From contig NC_019697.1 in the NCBI RefSeq assembly GCF_000317145.1, positions 4,102,886-4,166,885 on the forward strand: a DNA stretch of 64,000 nt, written 5' to 3'. Below, piece after piece: positions 24,580 through 63,755 of this stretch. Positions within the stretch are counted from its first letter, which is position 1, and every line of letters starts with the position of its first letter. Both the position numbers and the translations under genes were made by a program. Source of the DNA: Chamaesiphon minutus PCC 6605. Its GTDB lineage: Bacteria > Cyanobacteriota > Cyanobacteriia > Cyanobacteriales > Chamaesiphonaceae. The notes beneath the pieces were generated by a model. That model ran no database searches. It had not been told where the DNA came from and worked only from the letters and a program-made list of their open reading frames with translations.

Positions 24580-26640
24580 ATGATGTCAACTGCTAAAACC
24601 AATCGTTTCCTTCAAGATTTAGATCGAGTTGCGAGAGTGCGCCAAGAAGTAGCTAGTTCCCTCAGCCGGATGGTAACCAAGCTCCAGAAATCCGAACTCG
24701 CCGCCCAGACTGGATCTGGAGAAATGGGATTCGATCGAGATTTAGCAGATCTAACCAAAGCCAGTACCAATCTCCAAAAAGGTGTCTTTCGGTTGATGGT
24801 ATTGGGCGATATGAAACGGGGCAAAAGTACGTTTCTGAATGCTTTAATCGGTGAAAATATCTTACCGAGCGATGTCAATCCCTGCACGGCATTATTGACA
24901 GTCTTGCGCTATGGCGAACAGAAAAAAGTCACCGTTCATTTCAAAGATGGTAAGCCACCAGAATCGATAGATTTTAGTACGTTTAAAACTAAATACACCA
25001 TCGATCCGGCTGAAGCTAAGAAATTGGAAGAAATTAACAAACCTGCTTTCCCTGATGTCGATTATGCCGTGGTGGAATATCCCCTAGAATTACTTTCTAA
25101 AGGGATCGAAATCATCGATAGTCCCGGCTTGAATGATACCGAAGCGCGCAATGAATTATCGCTGGGATATCTGAATAATTGCCATGCAGTTTTATTCGTC
25201 CTCAGTGCGTCTCAACCTTGCACTTTAGGCGAACGTCGCTATCTCGAAAACTATGTCAAAGATCGCGGCTTGAGCGTATTTTTTCTCATCAATGCTTGGG
25301 ATCGCGTCAAAGAATCATTAATCGATCCCGATGATGCGACAGAATTGGCAGAAGCCGAAGGCAAACTAAATCGCGTATTTAAAGCGAATTTAGCTGAATA
25401 TTGTACGGTGGATGGCTACGATCTCTACGACGAGCGCGTATTTCCCTTATCTTCGATTACCGCACTCCGAAAACGGCTCAAAGATAAAGACGCCGATCTC
25501 GTAGGGACTGGCTTTCCACCCTTTATTAATGCTCTGAATACATTTTTGACGCAAGAGCGGGCGATTGCCGAATTGCGTCAAGCACGAATTATTGCCAAAC
25601 AAACTTGTACCCACGTCAAAGAAGCAGTCGCGCGGCGAATCCCGTTATTAGATACCAATGTAGACGAACTCAAAGCCAAAATTGCCGCAGTCGAACCGCA
25701 GTTTAATCAGCTCCAGTCAATTCGCGATGGTTTTCGCGATGATATTCGCCGCGTCCGCGATCGTCAAGCTCGATCGATCGCCGATTCGATGAAAGTATAT
25801 TTAATGAAATTGGAAGATACTTTCGAGGCAGATTTTCAAGCTTATCAACCTTCAGATATCCAATTCCTGGACTTCTTTAGTGACAATAAACGCGAACAAT
25901 TCAATCAATCAGCCCAGAAAGGATTTCAACAATATATTAATGATAAGTATTCTGCTTGGACGCTCTCAGCCCAAAAAGAATTAACCACTGCTTTCAGCGA
26001 ACTAGCGGAACAAGCCAAGAAATATGGAGTAGATTATCAAAACATCACTCAAGAGATGGCGGAGAAGCTGACAGGTAAAATCCATACCCGCAATAATGCC
26101 CTCGAAGATGATGGTACGCCAGCTTGGGCAAAGTGGGCGATGGGCTTATTTTCCTTAGCGACTGGTAATTTTGGGATCGCGGCTTTGGCTGTGGGTGGCT
26201 TCAATTTTCAAAGCATCATGCTCAATGTCTTTACTACTGCGGGAATTGCACTAGTCTTTGGTGCATTACTCGGTCCGATCGGAATTATCGTCGCTAGTTT
26301 AGGTGTTGCAGCGTTCCAAGTCGATCATGCCCGAAAATATTTTAGCCAGGAAATCAAGAAACAATTAGTCGCTAAGTTACCAGAGATTTCTAGAGAACAA
26401 TGGCAACCGATTTATAGTGCAGTACAAGAGTGTTTCGATAGTTACGAACGGGAAGCGATCGAACGAATCGATGATGATATCAAAACTCGCAAAATCGAGC
26501 TACAAAATCTCGTCAAGCAGAAGGAATCTCAAGAGATCGATCGAGTTACGGAAGTCAATCGGTTACAACAGTTTGAAGCTGATGTGTTGAGTGAATCACT
26601 CTCGATCGAGAATTTTTATCAAGGCTTCTTAAATGGTTAA
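24580..26640 (+). CDS. Bacterial dynamin-like protein 1 (BDLP-type large GTPase with membrane paddle)
   Basis: G1 LGDMKRGKSTF, G3 DSPGLND, G4-like INAWD. The long helical stalk and the hydrophobic paddle GLFSLATGNFGIAALAVGGF...GIALVFGALLGPIGIIV match the NosBDLP architecture. Confidence 0.85.
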   Translation: MMSTAKTNRFLQDLDRVARVRQEVASSLSRMVTKLQKSELAAQTGSGEMGFDRDLADLTKASTNLQKGVFRLMVLGDMKRGKSTFLNALIGENILPSDVNPCTALLTVLRYGEQKKVTVHFKDGKPPESIDFSTFKTKYTIDPAEAKKLEEINKPAFPDVDYAVVEYPLELLSKGIEIIDSPGLNDTEARNELSLGYLNNCHAVLFVLSASQPCTLGERRYLENYVKDRGLSVFFLINAWDRVKESLIDPDDATELAEAEGKLNRVFKANLAEYCTVDGYDLYDERVFPLSSITALRKRLKDKDADLVGTGFPPFINALNTFLTQERAIAELRQARIIAKQTCTHVKEAVARRIPLLDTNVDELKAKIAAVEPQFNQLQSIRDGFRDDIRRVRDRQARSIADSMKVYLMKLEDTFEADFQAYQPSDIQFLDFFSDNKREQFNQSAQKGFQQYINDKYSAWTLSAQKELTTAFSELAEQAKKYGVDYQNITQEMAEKLTGKIHTRNNALEDDGTPAWAKWAMGLFSLATGNFGIAALAVGGFNFQSIMLNVFTTAGIALVFGALLGPIGIIVASLGVAAFQVDHARKYFSQEIKKQLVAKLPEISREQWQPIYSAVQECFDSYEREAIERIDDDIKTRKIELQNLVKQKESQEIDRVTEVNRLQQFEADVLSESLSIENFYQGFLNG

Positions 26641-26669
26641 TCTGTAGTAATTGCATCTGAAATATAGAT

Positions 26670-26686
26670 GGTGGGCAATGCCCACC
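26670..26686. terminator. GC hairpin ggtgggcaatgcccacc after BDLP1; an inverted twin at 27391-27407 follows the next gene
   Basis: 6-bp GC stem with a 5-nt loop. The second copy is the exact reverse complement, so the two bracket the SMI1/KNR4 gene. Confidence 0.5.
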
Positions 26687-26710
26687 CTGCACCTTTTTTA
26701 CCACTTTCTC

Positions 26711-27367
26711 ATGTCTAAACTTCTTGAAGAACTTGCATATATTTTTGAATGGCTAGAATATACAGTTCCAGACTTAGCCGATCGCTACAATCCAGGTTTG
26801 ACGCGCCAACAGATCGATAATCTAGTTAAAGATTTACCATTTAGGTTGAGCGAGGAAGTTTACGAGCTTTATCGATGGCGAAATGGAGAATCTGACTTCG
26901 GTTATTATAACGGCGAATGTATGGTAGATTTTCTATTCCCCGACCATCACATTTCAGGAAATTTATCGATACCTTTTTGGCCTTTGCAAGATGCTATTAA
27001 AACCTATTGTAAATTATGGAAGATGGAAGAATCAAATCTGAAAAATCCACCTTATGAAGGTGCCCATCTCTGGGATCGAAAATGGTTTCCAATTGCTTCA
27101 ATGGAAAACAAAAGCATGTTAATTGTTGTTGGCGATCTCAATCCATCACCCATTTATCAGATTGAGTACGTTTTTCACGATCGTCCATTAAGAGTTTACA
27201 AAAGCTTAACCAGCATGATTTCTACGATCGCAGAATGCTGTGAATCAGATTTATACAAACTTATCAGAGATGATGACGATGAAAAAGAAGAAATGTTTTT
27301 TTACATCAAGTTAGACGAGGAAAAGCAAGAAGCAGAGAAAGATACATACAAAAAATACAACTCTTGA
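26711..27367 (+). CDS. SMI1/KNR4 (SUKH-1 superfamily) protein; orphan immunity-like gene
   Basis: Likely start MSKLLEELAY (the upstream part of the track ORF spans the hairpin). Conserved YRWRNGE and WF blocks typical of SMI1/KNR4. No adjacent toxin gene. Confidence 0.65.
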   Translation: MSKLLEELAYIFEWLEYTVPDLADRYNPGLTRQQIDNLVKDLPFRLSEEVYELYRWRNGESDFGYYNGECMVDFLFPDHHISGNLSIPFWPLQDAIKTYCKLWKMEESNLKNPPYEGAHLWDRKWFPIASMENKSMLIVVGDLNPSPIYQIEYVFHDRPLRVYKSLTSMISTIAECCESDLYKLIRDDDDEKEEMFFYIKLDEEKQEAEKDTYKKYNS

Positions 27368-27616
27368 AGAGCGATATTGTCAGCTCGTAGGGTGGGCATT
27401 GCCCACCATCTTAATTAACGATCGAGCTAAATATCTAAAAGTATCTAAACCTAAACTAACAAATTACTTAACTCGATCGATCCTGGATTTGTCACCCCTC
27501 ACCCACCGATATTGGGACAGAAACTTATGTAGACCATCTATGATGGAATAATCCATATATATTTGTGGACGATGACAACGCAATTTAACCGCTCCTTACC
27601 CAAACCATCTACGAAC

Positions 27617-27931
27617 ATGAAAGTGACACTTCTGGTAGAAACTATCCAACCTGGAAAAGTTGCTGCTTCTGTCTTGGAGTTTCCCGATTCTCGGATTGAA
27701 GCTGAAACTAGAGAAAGCGCGATTTCTCAATTACAGGCTAACTTTTTAGAACGACTCAAGCGGCTAGAAGCAATTTCCTGGAATATTCCTGTCAATGCTT
27801 CAAATAACATGGGGATGGAGTTTGTGGGTGTCTTTCAAGACGATCCAGATTTTCAGGCGATATCTAGAGATCTCTTAGCCGAACGCGCCTCAGAAGACGA
27901 TTCTGAAGTCGATCCGTCGTATTATGCCTAG
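27617..27931 (+). CDS. Type II antitoxin, HicB/UPF0150-like fold
   Basis: Start MKVTLLVETIQPGKVAASVLEFPDSRIEAETRESAI, an N-terminal beta-alpha module with an acidic C-terminus. Sits 12 bp upstream of a PIN toxin. Confidence 0.5.
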   Translation: MKVTLLVETIQPGKVAASVLEFPDSRIEAETRESAISQLQANFLERLKRLEAISWNIPVNASNNMGMEFVGVFQDDPDFQAISRDLLAERASEDDSEVDPSYYA

Positions 27932-27942
27932 AGGTAGATCTC

Positions 27943-28365
27943 TTGTCTAAATATATATTGGATACCGACCATATATCGCTCATCTTATTTAACCATCCTC
28001 AAGTTACAGAAAATGCGGCAAAACATCAAATTGCGACTTCGATCGTGACAGTGCAAGAACTCTTTAACGGCTGGATTGGGCAAATTAACGATCCAGCACA
28101 AATCAATAATTTACCTGCCTTATACTCCAAACTATCTACCACTCTAAAGTACCTACAGACTGTGGAAGTTTTAGACTTTACTGTAGAAGCGGATGAGTGC
28201 TTGAAAAATCTATTAAGTGCCAATCCACCTTTACGGAAGAATCGTCTGCAAAAAGACATGCGAATTGCGGCGATCGCATTATCTTTAGATCTTACTGTTG
28301 CCACACGCAATCGTAAAGATTTTGAATTAGTACCCAATCTCAATCTCGTCGATTGGACTCAGTAA
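27943..28365 (+). CDS. vapC: PIN-domain ribonuclease toxin (VapC-like)
   Basis: ILDTDHISL (the first catalytic Asp), further acidic residues at VQELFNG and KDMRIAAIA, and a final TRNRKDF. Confidence 0.8.
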   Translation: MSKYILDTDHISLILFNHPQVTENAAKHQIATSIVTVQELFNGWIGQINDPAQINNLPALYSKLSTTLKYLQTVEVLDFTVEADECLKNLLSANPPLRKNRLQKDMRIAAIALSLDLTVATRNRKDFELVPNLNLVDWTQ

Positions 28366-28490
28366 ACTTTGTCGATTTGGTGTAGATATCTACTCACTCA
28401 AATTTCTCTGTATATAGTGAGTATAACGATCGCGACCGATAAAAAAAGCCCCATAGTTATTGCTTATTTATTTAACCCGATCGACAAGCC

Positions 28491-30167
28491 ATGAATTCCT
28501 CACTCATCACCCACCTCCAAACTGCTGCTAACAAGCTGGAAATCGACCAAAACTCTAGATTGGGTAACGATCTCAAAACGCTTGCCAGTAAAGCAGGTCG
28601 ATCGAATTATCAAATTGCCGTATTTGGCCCCTTCAATCATGGTAAATCGACATTATTGAATGCGATCTTAGGCAATAAAACATTACCGATCGATCTGATT
28701 CCGACGACGGGTGCGGCGATTAAAGTTGTCTATGGTGAAGATATTGCGACGAAAATTACCCTAACTAATGGGCAAATCATCGCGGCTAAGAATACCGATA
28801 TTTTAACTGAATTTGCGATCCTAGATAACGATCGACGGATGCGGGATGATGTGTTAGAAGTCGAGGTAAGTTTTCCCCATCCGTTTTTACAGACTGGGGT
28901 TGAATTAATCGATTTACCAGGTACGAACGATCGCGACGAGCAGGATAACTTAGTACGCGATCGATTATTGGCGGCGGATTTGGTGGTAAATGTGTTAGAT
29001 GTACGTAAATTGATGACGCTCGGCGAGCGCGAACATCTGCGGGATTGGTTAGAAAATCGTGGGATTAATACCGTGGTATTCGTGGCGAATTTTACGAATA
29101 TGTTGGAGCCAGAAGAACAAAAAGAAGTTCAACATCGCCTCCGATTTGTCGCTGAGAGTTTTCGCTCTCAATTACCACCAGGGATTAGCAACCTCTATCG
29201 AGTTGACGCGCTCCCTGCTCTACGCGCTCGCCTGAAGGGTGACGACGCGACTTTGCATACTTCGGGGTTATCCTCATTTATTTCGGCACTCCAGGCGATT
29301 GTGTCGCACCAGCGCGAGAAACTAGCCGAGGTGCGGATGCCTGTGCTGCAATCGTTGGGATTAGAAATTCAAGGATTATTACGATCGCAGATTGCCAAAT
29401 TGACGGCAGAAGTTAACGAAACTAAAGAGAAGTGCGATCGAGAATTAGCCCTCAAGCGTCAAGCGCAAACATTAATCCAATCTGGATGGGAAACCAGCCT
29501 CAAAGAAGTCGAGCAGTGGTTATATTTACCCAACCTGATTAGCTTCTATCAGTCGCCATTAACTACGGCGATTCAAAAAAATGGATTTGGGGAATGGGAA
29601 TCGAGTAACGTCCGTCCGCGATTGCAACATTCTCAGCAAGAAATTAACGATTGGGTTACTAAAGCCGAAAGCTTTTTTAATACTTCTCCAGTCGAACCCC
29701 TAAAGATCGTTTTACCCGATCCGCCTGAAGTCTTATTACCAGAATCACCAACTCAATCTCCACCAAAACCTACAACACCATCTTCAACAATCGATAATTT
29801 GGCACCCACCGCACTGGCAACTGGCTTAGGCTGGATACTCGGAGGGCCAATAGGAGCGGTCGTTGCTGGCGGTGCGAGTACGATTGCAAATAAGCGATCG
29901 GGAGATCGATCTTCGGACAACACTAGTAATAGTAAAACTCCCGATAACTCGGCAGAGATTTTAGAAGCTTATACCGATGCGGCGGCTGATTATTTATTTA
30001 GACTAAATACTGAAACGATCAAGACAATTAAAGCCTATCGCGATCGAGCGGCTGCGGCTATTAATCCAGAAATTAAGCTCGATCGCCAGGTCGATTTGCA
30101 TCAACAACAAAACTTAACAGATTTAGAACGCTGCTTGGCAGATGTATTAGCTTCAGCCTCAGCGTAA
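28491..30167 (+). CDS. Bacterial dynamin-like protein 2 (partner large GTPase)
   Basis: G1 FGPFNHGKSTL, G2/G3 PTTG and DLPGTND, NVLD. A helical stalk and a Gly-rich hydrophobic tip ALATGLGWILGGPIGAVVAGGAS. Confidence 0.8.
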   Translation: MNSSLITHLQTAANKLEIDQNSRLGNDLKTLASKAGRSNYQIAVFGPFNHGKSTLLNAILGNKTLPIDLIPTTGAAIKVVYGEDIATKITLTNGQIIAAKNTDILTEFAILDNDRRMRDDVLEVEVSFPHPFLQTGVELIDLPGTNDRDEQDNLVRDRLLAADLVVNVLDVRKLMTLGEREHLRDWLENRGINTVVFVANFTNMLEPEEQKEVQHRLRFVAESFRSQLPPGISNLYRVDALPALRARLKGDDATLHTSGLSSFISALQAIVSHQREKLAEVRMPVLQSLGLEIQGLLRSQIAKLTAEVNETKEKCDRELALKRQAQTLIQSGWETSLKEVEQWLYLPNLISFYQSPLTTAIQKNGFGEWESSNVRPRLQHSQQEINDWVTKAESFFNTSPVEPLKIVLPDPPEVLLPESPTQSPPKPTTPSSTIDNLAPTALATGLGWILGGPIGAVVAGGASTIANKRSGDRSSDNTSNSKTPDNSAEILEAYTDAAADYLFRLNTETIKTIKAYRDRAAAAINPEIKLDRQVDLHQQQNLTDLERCLADVLASASA

Positions 30168-32765: not shown

Positions 32766-33003
32766 AAAAAATCCCCTCCTTGGAGGGGTGCCCGTAGGGC
32801 GGGGTGGGTAAGATCTTCGCCGAAGTCCTTCATCCCCGATCGCCTCCATCAACGATCGGTTACAATTCTCGATCAAAGCGAGAAGGCTCTAAGATCGATC
32901 GTCACATCTAGCCAAAGTTGCTCATGCTGAGATTGTTGGTAGGCAGTGGAGATCTACCCACCCCGCCCGTTGGGCACCCCTCCAAGGAGGGGATTTTTTA
33001 GGG
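32766..33003. mobile_element. MITE-like element: inverted pair of the 45-bp hairpin repeat with a roughly 120-bp core
   Basis: Left arm atcccctccttggaggggtgcccgtagggcggggtgggtaagatct. Right arm is the reverse complement, gatctacccaccccgcccgttgggcacccctccaaggaggggat. Confidence 0.65.
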
Positions 33004-63477: not shown

Positions 63478-63755
63478 AAAATCCCCTCCGAGGAGGGGTG
63501 CCCGAAGGGCGGGGTGGGTCAGATCTACGCTAATTACTAGAGATCACGATCGATCGTGGGTACACTAAATCTGTAATTTGATTATCCGATCGATGTCAGA
63601 GCCGAAATTAGAAGATTGCGATCGATCTGAGCAGTTAGAATTAGAAGACTCGATCGACAGTATGCCACCTAATCCCAAACATTCGGGTTTTATGAGTGCA
63701 AGCGGAGATCTACCCACCCCGCCCGCTGGGCACCCCTCCGAGGAGGGGATTTTTC
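63478..63755. mobile_element. MITE-like element, second full copy of the 45-bp hairpin-repeat inverted pair
   Basis: Arms aaaatcccctccgaggaggggtgcccgaagggcggggtgggtcagatct and gagatctacccaccccgcccgctgggcacccctccgaggaggggattttt. The hairpin loop differs from the 32.8-kb copy (ga versus tt) with the stem conserved. Confidence 0.6.

What the first reader, a model, noticed from the sequence alone, without database searches (positions are those of the whole stretch)
26651..28470. Orphan SUKH/SMI1-KNR4 immunity-like gene bracketed by mirror-image hairpins, plus a HicB-fold/PIN toxin-antitoxin pair
SMI1/KNR4 (SUKH) proteins are typically immunity proteins of polymorphic toxin / contact-dependent inhibition systems, yet no toxin gene is nearby. 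The gene is bracketed by ggtgggcaatgcccacc (26670-26686) and its exact reverse complement (27391-27407). The pairing of a HicB/UPF0150-fold antitoxin with a PIN toxin is a non-canonical TA combination.
Basis: partly seen in the sequence, partly recalled or inferred. Interest (0 to 1): 0.55.

Follow-up and report, generated by a model that had tools for sequence, protein, structure and literature searches.

The report
SUKH gene between two REP hairpins
A small accessory islet (one SMI1/KNR4-type gene plus a PIN toxin-antitoxin pair) has lodged between two normally adjacent dynamin-like genes of a Chamaesiphon-like cyanobacterium. The "mirror-image hairpins" are two copies of a widespread GTAG-tagged repetitive extragenic palindrome, so every component is of a known kind.

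Summary
GGTGGGCAATGCCCACC (26670-26686) and GGTGGGCATTGCCCACC (27391-27407) bracket an ORF that passes the Pfam SMI1_KNR4 threshold. A HicB-like/VapC-like pair follows.

The interpretation needs correcting in three ways:
- **Hairpins.** The 17-mer is a palindrome, and the two copies differ only at the central base. It belongs to a dispersed GTAG-tagged REP family found in many cyanobacterial genera and in other phyla. 81% of 135 exact copies carry GTAG/CTAC, and most doublets are REPIN-like. One copy sits 37 nt from a RAYT-type Y1 transposase gene. The window pair is a "tail-tail" REP dimer whose spacer holds the gene.
- **Locus variability.** The closest relatives carry, at the same site, the two hairpins 85 nt apart with no gene, or SUKH, or an unrelated 223-aa gene. 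A more distant relative has no such hairpins and adjacent dynamin genes.
- **TA pair.** It sits inside a ~45-nt duplication of the 5' end of the second dynamin gene. PIN+HicB pairings are already catalogued in Synechocystis.

Isolated SUKH genes are an established concept. Verdict: an ordinary variable islet, of modest interest. REP dimers acting as cassette boundaries remains an unproven possibility.

The parts
24580..26640 (+). First bacterial dynamin-like gene (BDLP1), the conserved left border of the islet
   Evidence: Pfam Dynamin_N 113 bits and Dynamin-like_hel_bact 537 bits. Orthologues at 90-92% identity were used to find the sister loci.
26661..26690 (.). Left REP copy. Core palindrome 26670-26686, inner tag CTGC 26687-26690 (a variant of CTAC), outer flank AATATAGAT.
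   Evidence: The orthologous copy in L128 reads GGTGGGCATTGCCCACC-CTAC, and L124 has CTAC. It forms a 7-bp stem with a 3-nt loop as RNA.
26711..27367 (+). SMI1/KNR4 (SUKH-1) family gene, 218 aa. The start is ATG 26711, not TTG 26651.
   Evidence: Pfam PF09346 30.1 bits, above the 25.4 cut-off. 56 homologues, mostly 212-219 aa, with M1 and S2 nearly invariant. Model matches the Knr4 core at TM up to 0.69. GC falls to 0.36-0.39, against 0.44-0.47 in the flanking genes.
27368..27416 (.). Conserved SUKH 3' UTR (AGAGCGATATTGTCAGCTC), GTAG tag at 27387-27390, right REP core at 27391-27407, outer flank ATCTTAATT.
   Evidence: The same UTR plus GTAG follows the SUKH gene in L128. A degenerate form follows it at a different locus in L121. 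It is also present without the gene in L142.
27408..27507 (+). Relic of the ancestral region upstream of BDLP2, ending in a dead copy of the BDLP2 start (ATG changed to CTG). 27464-27507 is the left copy of a ~45-nt direct repeat.
   Evidence: It aligns with the stretch from the right hairpin to the BDLP2 start in L124 and L126. Direct repeats D1 and D13.
27508..27571 (+). Upstream region of the TA pair, with a 5-bp inverted repeat ATGGA-ATAA-TCCAT at 27543-27556. This is a candidate promoter/operator (inferred).
   Evidence: Conserved in L142-L145 in front of the same TA pair, and left as a remnant in L128.
27572..27931 (+). Antitoxin, 119 aa (alternative start 27617, 104 aa). HicB-like N-domain plus an acidic C-terminal tail.
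   Evidence: 59 homologues, those with a source name all cyanobacterial, typically 119 aa. Beta-beta-beta-alpha core with HicB/UPF0150 as the best but weak fold matches. Residues 81-119 are 85% identical to the C-terminus of a PF09720 antitoxin.
27943..28365 (+). VapC-like PIN-domain toxin, 140 aa, TTG start 11 nt after the antitoxin stop
   Evidence: 91% identical to the partner gene in L142.
28366..28467 (+). 3' flank of the TA cassette
   Evidence: Conserved with L142 downstream of its PIN gene.
28468..28515 (+). Right copy of the ~45-nt direct repeat. It holds the live BDLP2 start codon at 28491.
28491..30167 (+). Second dynamin-like gene (BDLP2), the right border of the islet
   Evidence: Pfam Dynamin_N 84 bits. 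It lies 166-230 nt after BDLP1 in L137 and L124.

Best explanation
The region is a small variable islet that has built up in the intergenic space of a two-gene dynamin-like (BDLP1-BDLP2) locus in a Chamaesiphon-like cyanobacterium.

**Hairpins.** They are two copies of a GTAG-tagged repetitive extragenic palindrome (REP), arranged tail-to-tail with the GTAG tags facing inward. This element class is spread by RAYT-type Y1 transposases. As RNA it forms stable 3' hairpins. The SUKH gene lies in the spacer of this REP dimer.

**SUKH expression.** Only 24 nt separate the left hairpin from the start codon. The gene is therefore most likely transcribed by read-through from BDLP1. The left hairpin would act as an intercistronic attenuator or mRNA-stabilising hairpin, and the right hairpin would mark the 3' end.

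**SUKH function.** The protein is most likely a binding and neutralising protein kept as 'orphan' immunity against toxins delivered by other bacteria.

**TA pair.** It was inserted separately into the first ~25 nt of BDLP2, duplicating ~45 nt. Its VapC-type PIN RNase is held in check by the acidic C-terminal tail of a HicB-like antitoxin, and the pair probably stabilises the islet.

**Shown versus inferred.**
- Shown: family memberships, REP identity and distribution, presence/absence polymorphism at the orthologous site, the duplication.
- Inferred: transcription pattern, immunity role, addiction role, and whether SUKH arrived by insertion or was lost by deletion in relatives.
For: **REP identity**
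These come from many cyanobacterial genera and also planctomycetes, Desulfobacterota, gammaproteobacteria, Poribacteria and Scalindua.
- Of 135 exact copies with full flanks, 109 (81%) carry GTAG 5' or CTAC 3'.
- Close doublets are mostly heads-out and REPIN-like: 24 HH, 5 TT, 5 HT.
- No protein family recurs next to the copies.
- In L028 a Y1_Tnp/RAYT-like ORF (DHIH...YIHYNP) ends 37 nt from an exact copy plus CTAC.
- Di Nocera et al. 2013 define GTAG-tagged REPs in Cyanobacteria and Planctomycetes. They describe HH and TT dimers, variable TT spacers, and DNA inserted between dimer partners (PMC3733652).
- Cyanobacterial RAYT subclasses with 5' GT[AG]G REPs are described in PMC6006769.

**Islet**
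- L137 has the same synteny (DUF3040-BDLP1-BDLP2-Band_7) with a 166-nt gap and no such hairpins.
- L124 has both hairpins in the same orientation, 85 nt apart, followed by BDLP2.
- L128 has hairpin-CTAC, SUKH, then GTAG.
- L126 has an unrelated 223-aa gene between hairpin copies, and a different TA pair (Unstab_antitox/ParE) after the BDLP2 start.
- L142-L144 have the SUKH 3' UTR without the gene, followed by the same TA pair and BDLP2.
- GC dips over the islet.

**TA pair**
- Alignment A5 shows the relic BDLP2 start and the duplication.
- Catalytic-column alignment to VapC.
- PIN+HicB pairs are catalogued in Synechocystis.

**Hairpin stability:**
Against: - The source genome could not be retrieved. 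REP copy number and the presence of a RAYT in this genome are therefore unknown, and only two copies lie in the 64 kb.
- The left copy has CTGC instead of CTAC.
- Neither hairpin has a U-run directly after the stem. The left one has U6 seven nt downstream, so a terminator role is not established.
- The direction of events (insertion vs deletion of SUKH) is not resolved. The 85-nt spacer of L124 shows no significant similarity to the SUKH cassette, whereas L142 keeps the SUKH 3' UTR, which argues for deletion there.
- The SUKH gene carries REP remnants at a second locus too (after MatE: L121, L123). This fits co-movement of gene and hairpins better than chance.
- There is no functional evidence for immunity. 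By fold the protein is closer to yeast Knr4 than to the bacterial immunity protein YobK.
Confidence: 0.7

Rival explanations
1. REP-bounded mobile cassette. The unit [left REP - SUKH - right REP] moves, or is exchanged, as a block. This could happen through RAYT action on the hairpins or through recombination between REP copies. REP tail-tail dimers would then act as docking sites where alternative cargo genes are swapped.
For: - Three states occur at the same orthologous site: an 85-nt spacer, SUKH, and an unrelated 223-aa gene flanked by hairpin-containing repeats.
- The SUKH gene with its conserved 3' UTR plus a (degenerate) GTAG hairpin also lies after MatE in L121. L123 keeps half of the left hairpin with a similar outer flank.
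- A 46%-identical homologue in L130 is also followed by a GTAG hairpin.
- The two window copies share extra flank similarity beyond the palindrome.
Against: - No transposase lies in or near the unit, and there is no target-site duplication around it.
- The tags face inward, unlike REPINs and unlike the REP next to the RAYT in L028.
- SUKH homologues in L129, L132 and L135 have no hairpins.
- L142 shows an imprecise loss that leaves the 3' UTR behind.
- Genes bracketed by this REP elsewhere are unrelated housekeeping-type genes such as DinB_2 and L-PSP. That pattern is expected simply from REPs lying in intergenic regions.
Confidence: 0.15
2. The hairpins are locus-specific regulatory sites, either operator sites of a GGGnnnnnCCC-binding regulator such as HetR or dedicated intrinsic terminators, rather than repeat elements.
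For: - The 17-mer is the core of the 'low-affinity HetR-binding consensus' GCTTATGGTGGGCAATGCCCACCATAATA quoted from Videau 2014 in PMC7476756. HetR needs GGGnnnnnCCC (PMC4192349).
- The terminator scan flags both hairpins when they are read outward.
- Different relatives carry some hairpin after BDLP1.
Against: - The element is dispersed next to unrelated genes and in phyla that are not known to carry HetR (own knowledge).
- The GTAG tagging, REPIN-like doublets and RAYT adjacency are not explained by an operator role.
- There is no U-tract directly after either stem.
Confidence: 0.08
3. The SUKH protein is a functional partner of the dynamin-like proteins, for example in an envelope or membrane-stress module, and is not an immunity protein.
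For: - It lies directly after BDLP1 in the window and in L128, and is probably co-transcribed.
- Its model matches the full core of yeast Knr4, a cell-wall-integrity hub, better than it matches bacterial YobK.
Against: - It is absent from the same locus in L124, L137 and L142.
- Close homologues sit after MatE, after a response-regulator histidine kinase, and elsewhere.
- The low GC suggests an accessory origin.
Confidence: 0.07

Closest known systems
GTAG-tagged REP elements and their HH/TT dimers (Di Nocera, De Gregorio & Rocco 2013, PMC3733652); REPIN-RAYT systems (Bertels & Rainey 2011, PMC3116915)
   Same: - A short GC-rich palindrome with an unpaired GTAG at one end.
- Dispersed in intergenic regions of Cyanobacteria and Planctomycetes.
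- Frequent inverted doublets, and one copy beside a Y1/RAYT gene.
- The window pair fits the definition of a TT dimer (tags inside), a type said to have variable spacers and sometimes inserted DNA.
   Different: - The spacer is 704 nt and contains a whole gene, against the usual 20-100 nt.
- The left tag is CTGC rather than CTAC.
- I could not assign the element to family GTAG-12, -15 or -16, because the consensus sequences appear only in figures that are not held.
- It is not a REPIN, which has tags outside and a short spacer.
Isolated (orphan) SUKH immunity genes of polymorphic toxin systems (Zhang, Iyer & Aravind 2011, PMC3113570)
   Same: - SMI1_KNR4 domain.
- Small stand-alone protein with no adjacent toxin.
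- Variable presence among close relatives, and tandem paralogues in L130.
   Different: - No toxin link has been shown for any member of this cyanobacterial subfamily.
- The protein is a long form (N- and C-terminal helices) that superposes best on the yeast Knr4 core.
VapBC-type type II TA modules with HicB (COG1598) antitoxins in cyanobacteria, e.g. Synechocystis ssl7007/sll7006, slr5116/ssr5117, sll0624/sll0624a (Kopfmann et al. 2016, PMC4963859)
   Same: - A PIN toxin paired with a HicB-like antitoxin.
- A two-gene unit that is chromosomal and accessory.
   Different: - The order here is antitoxin first. The three Synechocystis examples are listed as toxin first.
- The antitoxin has no recognisable DNA-binding domain.
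- Its C-terminal tail is shared with a PF09720 antitoxin.
Low-affinity HetR binding site of Anabaena PCC 7120 (Videau et al. 2014, as quoted in PMC7476756)
   Same: Identical 17-nt core GGTGGGCAATGCCCACC.
   Different: - The published site has TTAT/ATAA flanks, not GTAG.
- No HetR link is shown for this organism.
- The element also occurs in phyla that are not known to carry HetR (own knowledge; not tested here).

Membership tests
SMI1/KNR4 (SUKH-1) superfamily | Sequence match to PF09346 above the curated threshold | tested here: met
   30.1 bits against a 25.4 cut-off, covering profile positions 1-123 of 125. Most homologues carry a precomputed PF09346 hit.
SMI1/KNR4 (SUKH-1) superfamily | SUKH alpha+beta fold | tested here: met
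   Model pLDDT 86.6, pTM 0.86. Foldseek hits: Knr4 core E 7e-7 and TM 0.69, FBXO3, BF1740, YobK, Syd.
Polymorphic-toxin immunity protein (cognate pair) | Gene directly downstream of, or next to, a toxin gene or toxin C-terminal domain | tested here: not met
   The neighbours are BDLP1 and a TA pair. The large ORFs of the window are AcrB and histidine kinases. Homologue contexts (MatE, DUF3885, WD40, kinases) show no toxin.
Polymorphic-toxin immunity protein (cognate pair) | Neutralises a specific toxin | not testable with these tools
   Needs co-expression or competition assays.
GTAG-tagged REP | Short palindromic stem-loop with an unpaired GTAG at one end | tested here: met
   The right copy is GTAG-GGTGGGCATTGCCCACC. 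The left copy reads GCAG on the other strand, and its orthologues read CTAC. 81% of 135 copies elsewhere are tagged.
GTAG-tagged REP | Many dispersed, mostly intergenic copies per genome | tested here: inconclusive
   The element is dispersed in other genomes, several of which contribute multiple loci, and no neighbouring gene recurs. In this window there are only 2 copies, and the source genome is not available. The close relative L128 has a further copy at another site.
GTAG-tagged REP | Occurrence as HH / TT dimers | tested here: met
   24 HH, 5 TT and 5 HT doublets within 150 nt. L124 has a TT dimer with an 85-nt spacer at the orthologous site.
REP-RAYT system | Cognate RAYT (Y1 HUH transposase) gene flanked by the REP | tested here: inconclusive
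   There is one case. The L028 Y1_Tnp-like ORF scores 21.5 bits on a truncated ORF, with an exact REP 37 nt after its stop. No HUH...YxxxNP ORF lies in the window. The rest of the source genome could not be tested.
REPIN | Two inverted REPs with tags outside and a short conserved spacer, forming one long hairpin | tested here: not met
   The window pair has tags inside and a 704-nt spacer.
Intrinsic (Rho-independent) terminator | GC-rich stem directly followed by a U-tract | tested here: inconclusive
   The stems are stable, and a lenient scan flags both when they are read outward. On the sense strand the left hairpin is followed by CUGCACC before U6, and the right one by AUCUUAAUUAA.
VapC / PIN-domain toxin | PIN domain with four conserved acidic residues | tested here: met
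   Pfam PIN is below threshold (20.5 vs 23.6) and NCBIfam VapC is far below its cut-off. Against that, there are full-length alignments to solved VapCs (E 1e-4). D7, E39, D105 and D126 fall in the columns of the catalytic D/E/D/E. The residue roles come from my own knowledge of Shigella VapC.
Type II toxin-antitoxin module | Two small adjacent co-oriented genes that travel together | tested here: met
   The gap is 11 nt. The same pair (antitoxin 88% identical, toxin 91% identical) occurs with the same spacing in L142-L144.
Type II toxin-antitoxin module | Toxicity of one protein and neutralisation by the other | not testable with these tools
   Needs expression assays.
HicB / UPF0150 antitoxin fold | Partial RNase-H-like beta-beta-beta-alpha-beta N-domain | tested here: inconclusive
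   No Pfam, NCBIfam or PDB sequence hit. The model core (residues 20-64) has pLDDT 81-86 and is beta-beta-beta-alpha. The top fold hits are HicB 6g1c, 2yzt, 6u0i, 6g1n and 2dsy, but with E of 0.05 or higher and TM 0.35-0.58. JGI annotation agrees.

The most novel reading that the evidence does not exclude
Tail-to-tail dimers of this GTAG-REP act as recurrent docking or exchange sites for single-gene cassettes. On this reading, [REP - gene - REP] units such as the SUKH cassette are captured, swapped and moved between loci by the REP machinery (RAYT) or by REP-REP recombination. That would be a hairpin-bounded cassette system in cyanobacteria, loosely analogous to integron cassettes. The observations behind it are the three alternative fillings of the same REP pair in sister genomes, and REP remnants accompanying the SUKH gene at a second locus.
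Probability: 0.12. Interest if true: 0.6.

Novelty: new member of a known kind. Interest (0 to 1): 0.3.

Why it matters
As it stands, this is a tidy example of how an intergenic REP dimer, an orphan SUKH gene and a TA module pile up inside a conserved two-gene dynamin-like locus and differ between near-identical genomes. That is useful for annotation, because the hairpins should be labelled REP elements and not cassette ends or dedicated terminators.

Two side points could matter more:
- The published 'low-affinity HetR site' of Anabaena has the same 17-nt core as this widely dispersed REP. Genome-wide scans for HetR targets that use this motif may therefore partly be counting REP copies.
- If REP tail-tail dimers really are preferred sites of gene gain and loss, that would give REPs a role in accessory-genome turnover.

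Tried and rejected
- **Source contig.** Exact-sequence look-ups of the SUKH protein and BDLP1 found nothing, so the source genome could not be examined.
- **Metagenome scan.** A scan with the SUKH alignment gave only 3 loci.
- **Literature gaps.** Videau 2014 is not held. The Di Nocera supplements contain none of the searched strings (the 8-nt REP half-sites, GTAG-12, GTAG-16), so the element could not be assigned to GTAG-12, -15 or -16.
- **Neighbouring genes.** Clustering all ORFs within 600 nt of the hairpin in 120 loci found no recurrent family. This rejects the idea of a gene-linked hairpin.
- **L124 spacer.** Aligning the 85-nt spacer of L124 to the SUKH cassette gave no convincing similarity, so deletion versus insertion remains open.
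- **L126 gene.** The 223-aa gene is unrelated to SUKH and has no Pfam or PADLOC hit.
- **Defence and structure searches.** PADLOC gave only a weak hit for SUKH (PDC-M40A, E 0.002) and nothing for the TA proteins. A profile search of PDB sequences with the SUKH alignment found nothing, and only the fold search worked.
- **Upstream start.** The TTG 26651 start (238 aa) would make the left hairpin coding. It was rejected because homologues start at the MS(K/E)L motif.
- **'Generic terminator of this genome'.** Rejected for this window, which has only two copies, both here, while other hairpin families occupy other intergenic regions.
Full report
**What is there**

The 26.6-28.5 kb stretch lies between two dynamin-like GTPase genes. 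BDLP1 (24580-26640) has Dynamin_N plus the bacterial dynamin-like helical domain at 537 bits. BDLP2 (28491-30167) has Dynamin_N. Between them, all on the + strand, lie in order:
- a hairpin at 26670-26686;
- a 218-aa ORF at 26711-27367;
- a hairpin at 27391-27407;
- a 119-aa ORF at 27572-27931;
- a 140-aa ORF at 27943-28365.

The two 17-mers are exact and are the only copies in the window, even with two mismatches allowed. None was found in 100 shuffles.

**Checking the observation**

The 17-mer is GGTGGGCA-N-TGCCCACC, a perfect palindrome around one base. 'Exact reverse complement' therefore amounts to a one-base difference (A vs T) at the centre. In the orthologous left copy of a relative (L128) the central base is T instead of A, so the loop base is not tied to position.

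The inverted orientation is nevertheless real, because the asymmetric flanks are inverted too. The arms extend to 28 nt (26661-26688 / 27389-27416) and are 93% complementary. AGAT lies outside and CTGC / GTAG inside. Each hairpin forms a 7-bp, 3-nt-loop stem as RNA.

**The proteins**

*SUKH.* The 218-aa ORF passes the Pfam SMI1_KNR4 threshold (30.1 vs 25.4 bits).
- It has 56 homologues, those with a source name all cyanobacterial. The closest named one is from Chamaesiphon at 76%, and unnamed metagenomic ones reach 85%.
- The conserved N-terminus fixes the start at ATG 26711.
- An AlphaFold model (pLDDT 86.6) superposes over its full length on the yeast Knr4 core (TM 0.63-0.69, E about 1e-6). 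It matches bacterial SUKH proteins YobK, BF1740 and Syd less well.

*PIN toxin.* The 140-aa ORF is below the Pfam PIN cut-off (20.5 vs 23.6 bits) and far below the NCBIfam VapC cut-offs.
- It aligns end to end with three solved VapC proteins.
- D7, E39, D105 and D126 fall in the columns of the acidic active-site residues.

*Antitoxin.* The 119-aa ORF has no sequence-family hit.
- Its 59 homologues, where named, are cyanobacterial, and JGI calls several of them 'RNase H-like HicB family'.
- Its model has a confident beta-beta-beta-alpha core. The best PDB matches are HicB N-domains and UPF0150 proteins, at weak E-values.
- Its last 39 residues are 85% identical to the C-terminus of a PF09720 (Unstab_antitox) protein. 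This points to a shared toxin-binding tail on exchangeable N-domains.

**What the hairpins are**

Most are from many cyanobacterial genera. Others are from Pirellulales, Tepidisphaeraceae, Phycisphaerae, Desulfatitalea, gammaproteobacteria, Poribacteria and Scalindua.

A random 17-mer would be expected roughly 70 times in 596 Gb on both strands (my arithmetic). Raw counts therefore prove little, but the flanks do:
- Of 135 exact copies with full flanks, 104 carry GTAG on the 5' side or CTAC on the 3' side, and 5 carry both. That is 81%, against under 1% expected by chance.
- Close doublets are mainly heads-out with 8-60-nt spacers (24 HH, 5 TT, 5 HT). This is the REPIN arrangement.
- No protein family recurs next to the copies.
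- In Nostoc parmelioides (L028), an ORF with the HUH and YIHYNP motifs of REP-associated tyrosine transposases ends 37 nt before an exact copy plus CTAC. The ORF scores 21.5 bits against Pfam Y1_Tnp on a truncated sequence.

This matches the GTAG-tagged REP superfamily of Di Nocera et al. 2013. They report such elements in Cyanobacteria and Planctomycetes, and they name dimers with tags outside HH and tags inside TT. They also note that TT spacers are variable and that DNA can be inserted between partners (PMC3733652). RAYT subclasses with GT[AG]G REPs in cyanobacteria are described in PMC6006769.

The window pair is thus a TT dimer with a 704-nt spacer. I could not assign it to a numbered GTAG family, because the consensus sequences are not in the held text.

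**The orthologous locus in relatives**

BDLP1 orthologues at 90-92% identity give the history.

| Locus | Arrangement after BDLP1 |
|---|---|
| L137 | Same synteny as the window (DUF3040-BDLP1-BDLP2-Band_7). 166-nt gap, a different hairpin, and none of this REP. |
| L124 | Hairpin-CTAC, 85 nt, GTAG-hairpin, then the BDLP2 upstream region and BDLP2. This is the same TT dimer without a gene. |
| L128 | Hairpin-CTAC, SUKH, the same 3' UTR and GTAG. Then another repeat element, and a remnant of the window's TA upstream region. |
| L126 | A hairpin, an unrelated 223-aa gene, a degenerate hairpin, the BDLP2 upstream region and the first ~50 nt of BDLP2. Then a different TA pair (Unstab_antitox/ParE). 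|
| L142-L144 | BDLP1 stop, then the SUKH 3' UTR and a degenerate hairpin but no SUKH. Then the same TA pair (antitoxin 88% and toxin 91% identical) and BDLP2. |

The site is therefore a small hot spot of gain and loss, bounded by two conserved genes. GC falls from 0.44-0.47 in the BDLP genes to 0.36-0.39 over SUKH.

**The TA insertion**

Window 27408-27507 aligns with the stretch that in L124 and L126 runs from the right hairpin to the start of BDLP2. It ends in a dead start (CTG for ATG) and ...CACCCACC. The live copy is at 28468-28515. The ~960-nt TA cassette therefore sits inside a ~45-nt duplication of the BDLP2 5' end. Its upstream region, with a 5-bp inverted repeat at 27543-27556, and its 3' flank are conserved with L142.

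**Is the SUKH gene tied to the hairpins?**

Partly.
- *With hairpins.* At a second locus (after MatE) the gene keeps the GATATTGTCA 3' UTR and a degenerate tagged hairpin (L121) or half of the left hairpin (L123). A 46%-identical homologue in L130, the second of two tandem SUKH genes, is also followed by GTAG-GGTAGGCACTGCCCAC.
- *Without hairpins.* Homologues in L129, L132 and L135 have none.
- *Elsewhere.* Genes bracketed by this REP in other genomes are unrelated (DinB_2, L-PSP, unknowns).

Co-movement of gene and hairpins is therefore possible but not demonstrated. I keep it as the main rival and as the 'novel case'.

**How it most likely works**

- *Shown:* family memberships, REP nature, locus polymorphism, the duplication.
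- *Inferred from established knowledge of REPs:* only 24 nt lie between the left hairpin and the SUKH start. SUKH is therefore probably expressed by read-through from BDLP1. The left hairpin would then act as an intercistronic attenuator or 3'-exonuclease block, and the right one as the transcript end. Neither hairpin is a canonical terminator.
- *Inferred from Zhang et al. 2011 (PMC3113570):* an isolated SUKH gene most plausibly provides immunity to non-self toxins.
- *Inferred from VapBC biology:* the PIN RNase is neutralised by the antitoxin's C-terminal tail, and the pair stabilises the islet.

**Comparison with what is known, and novelty**

- PIN+HicB pairs are already listed three times in Synechocystis 6803 (PMC4963859).
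- Isolated SUKH genes are an established idea.
- GTAG-REP TT dimers, including those with inserted DNA, are described.

The finding is a new member of known kinds. One side observation may be worth following up. The 17-nt core equals the 'low-affinity HetR site' quoted for Anabaena (PMC7476756; PMC4192349), so that motif may largely mark REP copies.

**Limits**

- The source genome was not retrievable. Genome-wide REP number, the presence of a RAYT, and any distant cognate toxin are untested.
- The direction of SUKH gain or loss is unresolved.

Noticed in passing
window 26670-26686 and 27391-27407; literature: The 17-mer is the core of the 'low-affinity HetR-binding consensus' GCTTATGGTGGGCAATGCCCACCATAATA quoted for Anabaena PCC 7120 (PMC7476756, citing Videau 2014). 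The same core is a dispersed GTAG-tagged REP in many phyla, so such HetR sites may be REP copies.
   Followed up: partly
L028 7531-7998 (Nostoc parmelioides FACHB-3921): A RAYT-like Y1 transposase ORF (DHIH...YIHYNP, Pfam Y1_Tnp 21.5 bits on a truncated ORF) ends 37 nt before an exact REP copy followed by CTAC. This is the only direct REP-transposase link I found.
   Followed up: partly
L096 2200-3160: A second RAYT gene (Y1_Tnp 23.9 bits) is flanked by a different tagged palindrome, GTAGGGTGCATCAGA. It shares the GTAGGGTG head with the REP studied here.
   Followed up: no
L126 8915-9642: In a sister genome, a different TA pair (Unstab_antitox/ParE) lies after the first ~50 nt of BDLP2. This is close to where the window's HicB-like/PIN pair lies, and the rest of BDLP2 is missing. 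The 5' end of BDLP2 seems to be a repeated insertion point.
   Followed up: partly
window 27812-27931 (antitoxin residues 81-119); P0235: The antitoxin's C-terminal 39 residues are 85% identical to the C-terminus of a PF09720 (Unstab_antitox) protein. The N-terminal domains differ, which suggests modular exchange of antitoxin domains around one toxin-binding tail.
   Followed up: partly
window 32773-32992 and 63483-63748: Two inverted pairs of AAAAATCCCCTCCnnGGAGGGGTGCCCG, about 200-250 nt apart. They look like two copies of a small MITE-like element.
   Followed up: no
window 12023, 19137, 19180; 14306, 14340; 55451, 55481: Other short hairpin repeat families occur in the window: CTGGAGGttcCCTCCAG, CCCCCTTaaaAAGGGGG and GTCCACTtcAGTGGAC. 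The genome therefore carries several palindromic repeat types.
   Followed up: no
L128 8815-8915; L137 7070-7105: Another tagged repeat, GTAGGTTGGGT...ACCCAACCTAC, replaces the right REP in L128. A related GTTGGGT...ACCCAAC hairpin follows BDLP1 in L137.
   Followed up: no
L142 1695-3986 and 5071-6688 (also L143, L144): In these contigs both dynamin-like genes are called as two pieces each (Dynamin_N separate from the helical part). This could reflect frameshifts, pseudogenes or assembly errors at the locus that carries the same TA pair.
   Followed up: no
window 26711-27367: The predicted SUKH structure superposes over its whole length on the yeast Knr4 core (TM up to 0.69). The match to bacterial immunity-type SUKH proteins such as YobK is much weaker (TM 0.44).
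   Followed up: partly
L130 1-800; L121 5513-6823: SUKH homologues occur as a tandem pair (L130) and directly after a DUF3885 gene (L121). This resembles the arrays of immunity-like genes described for SUKH proteins.
   Followed up: no
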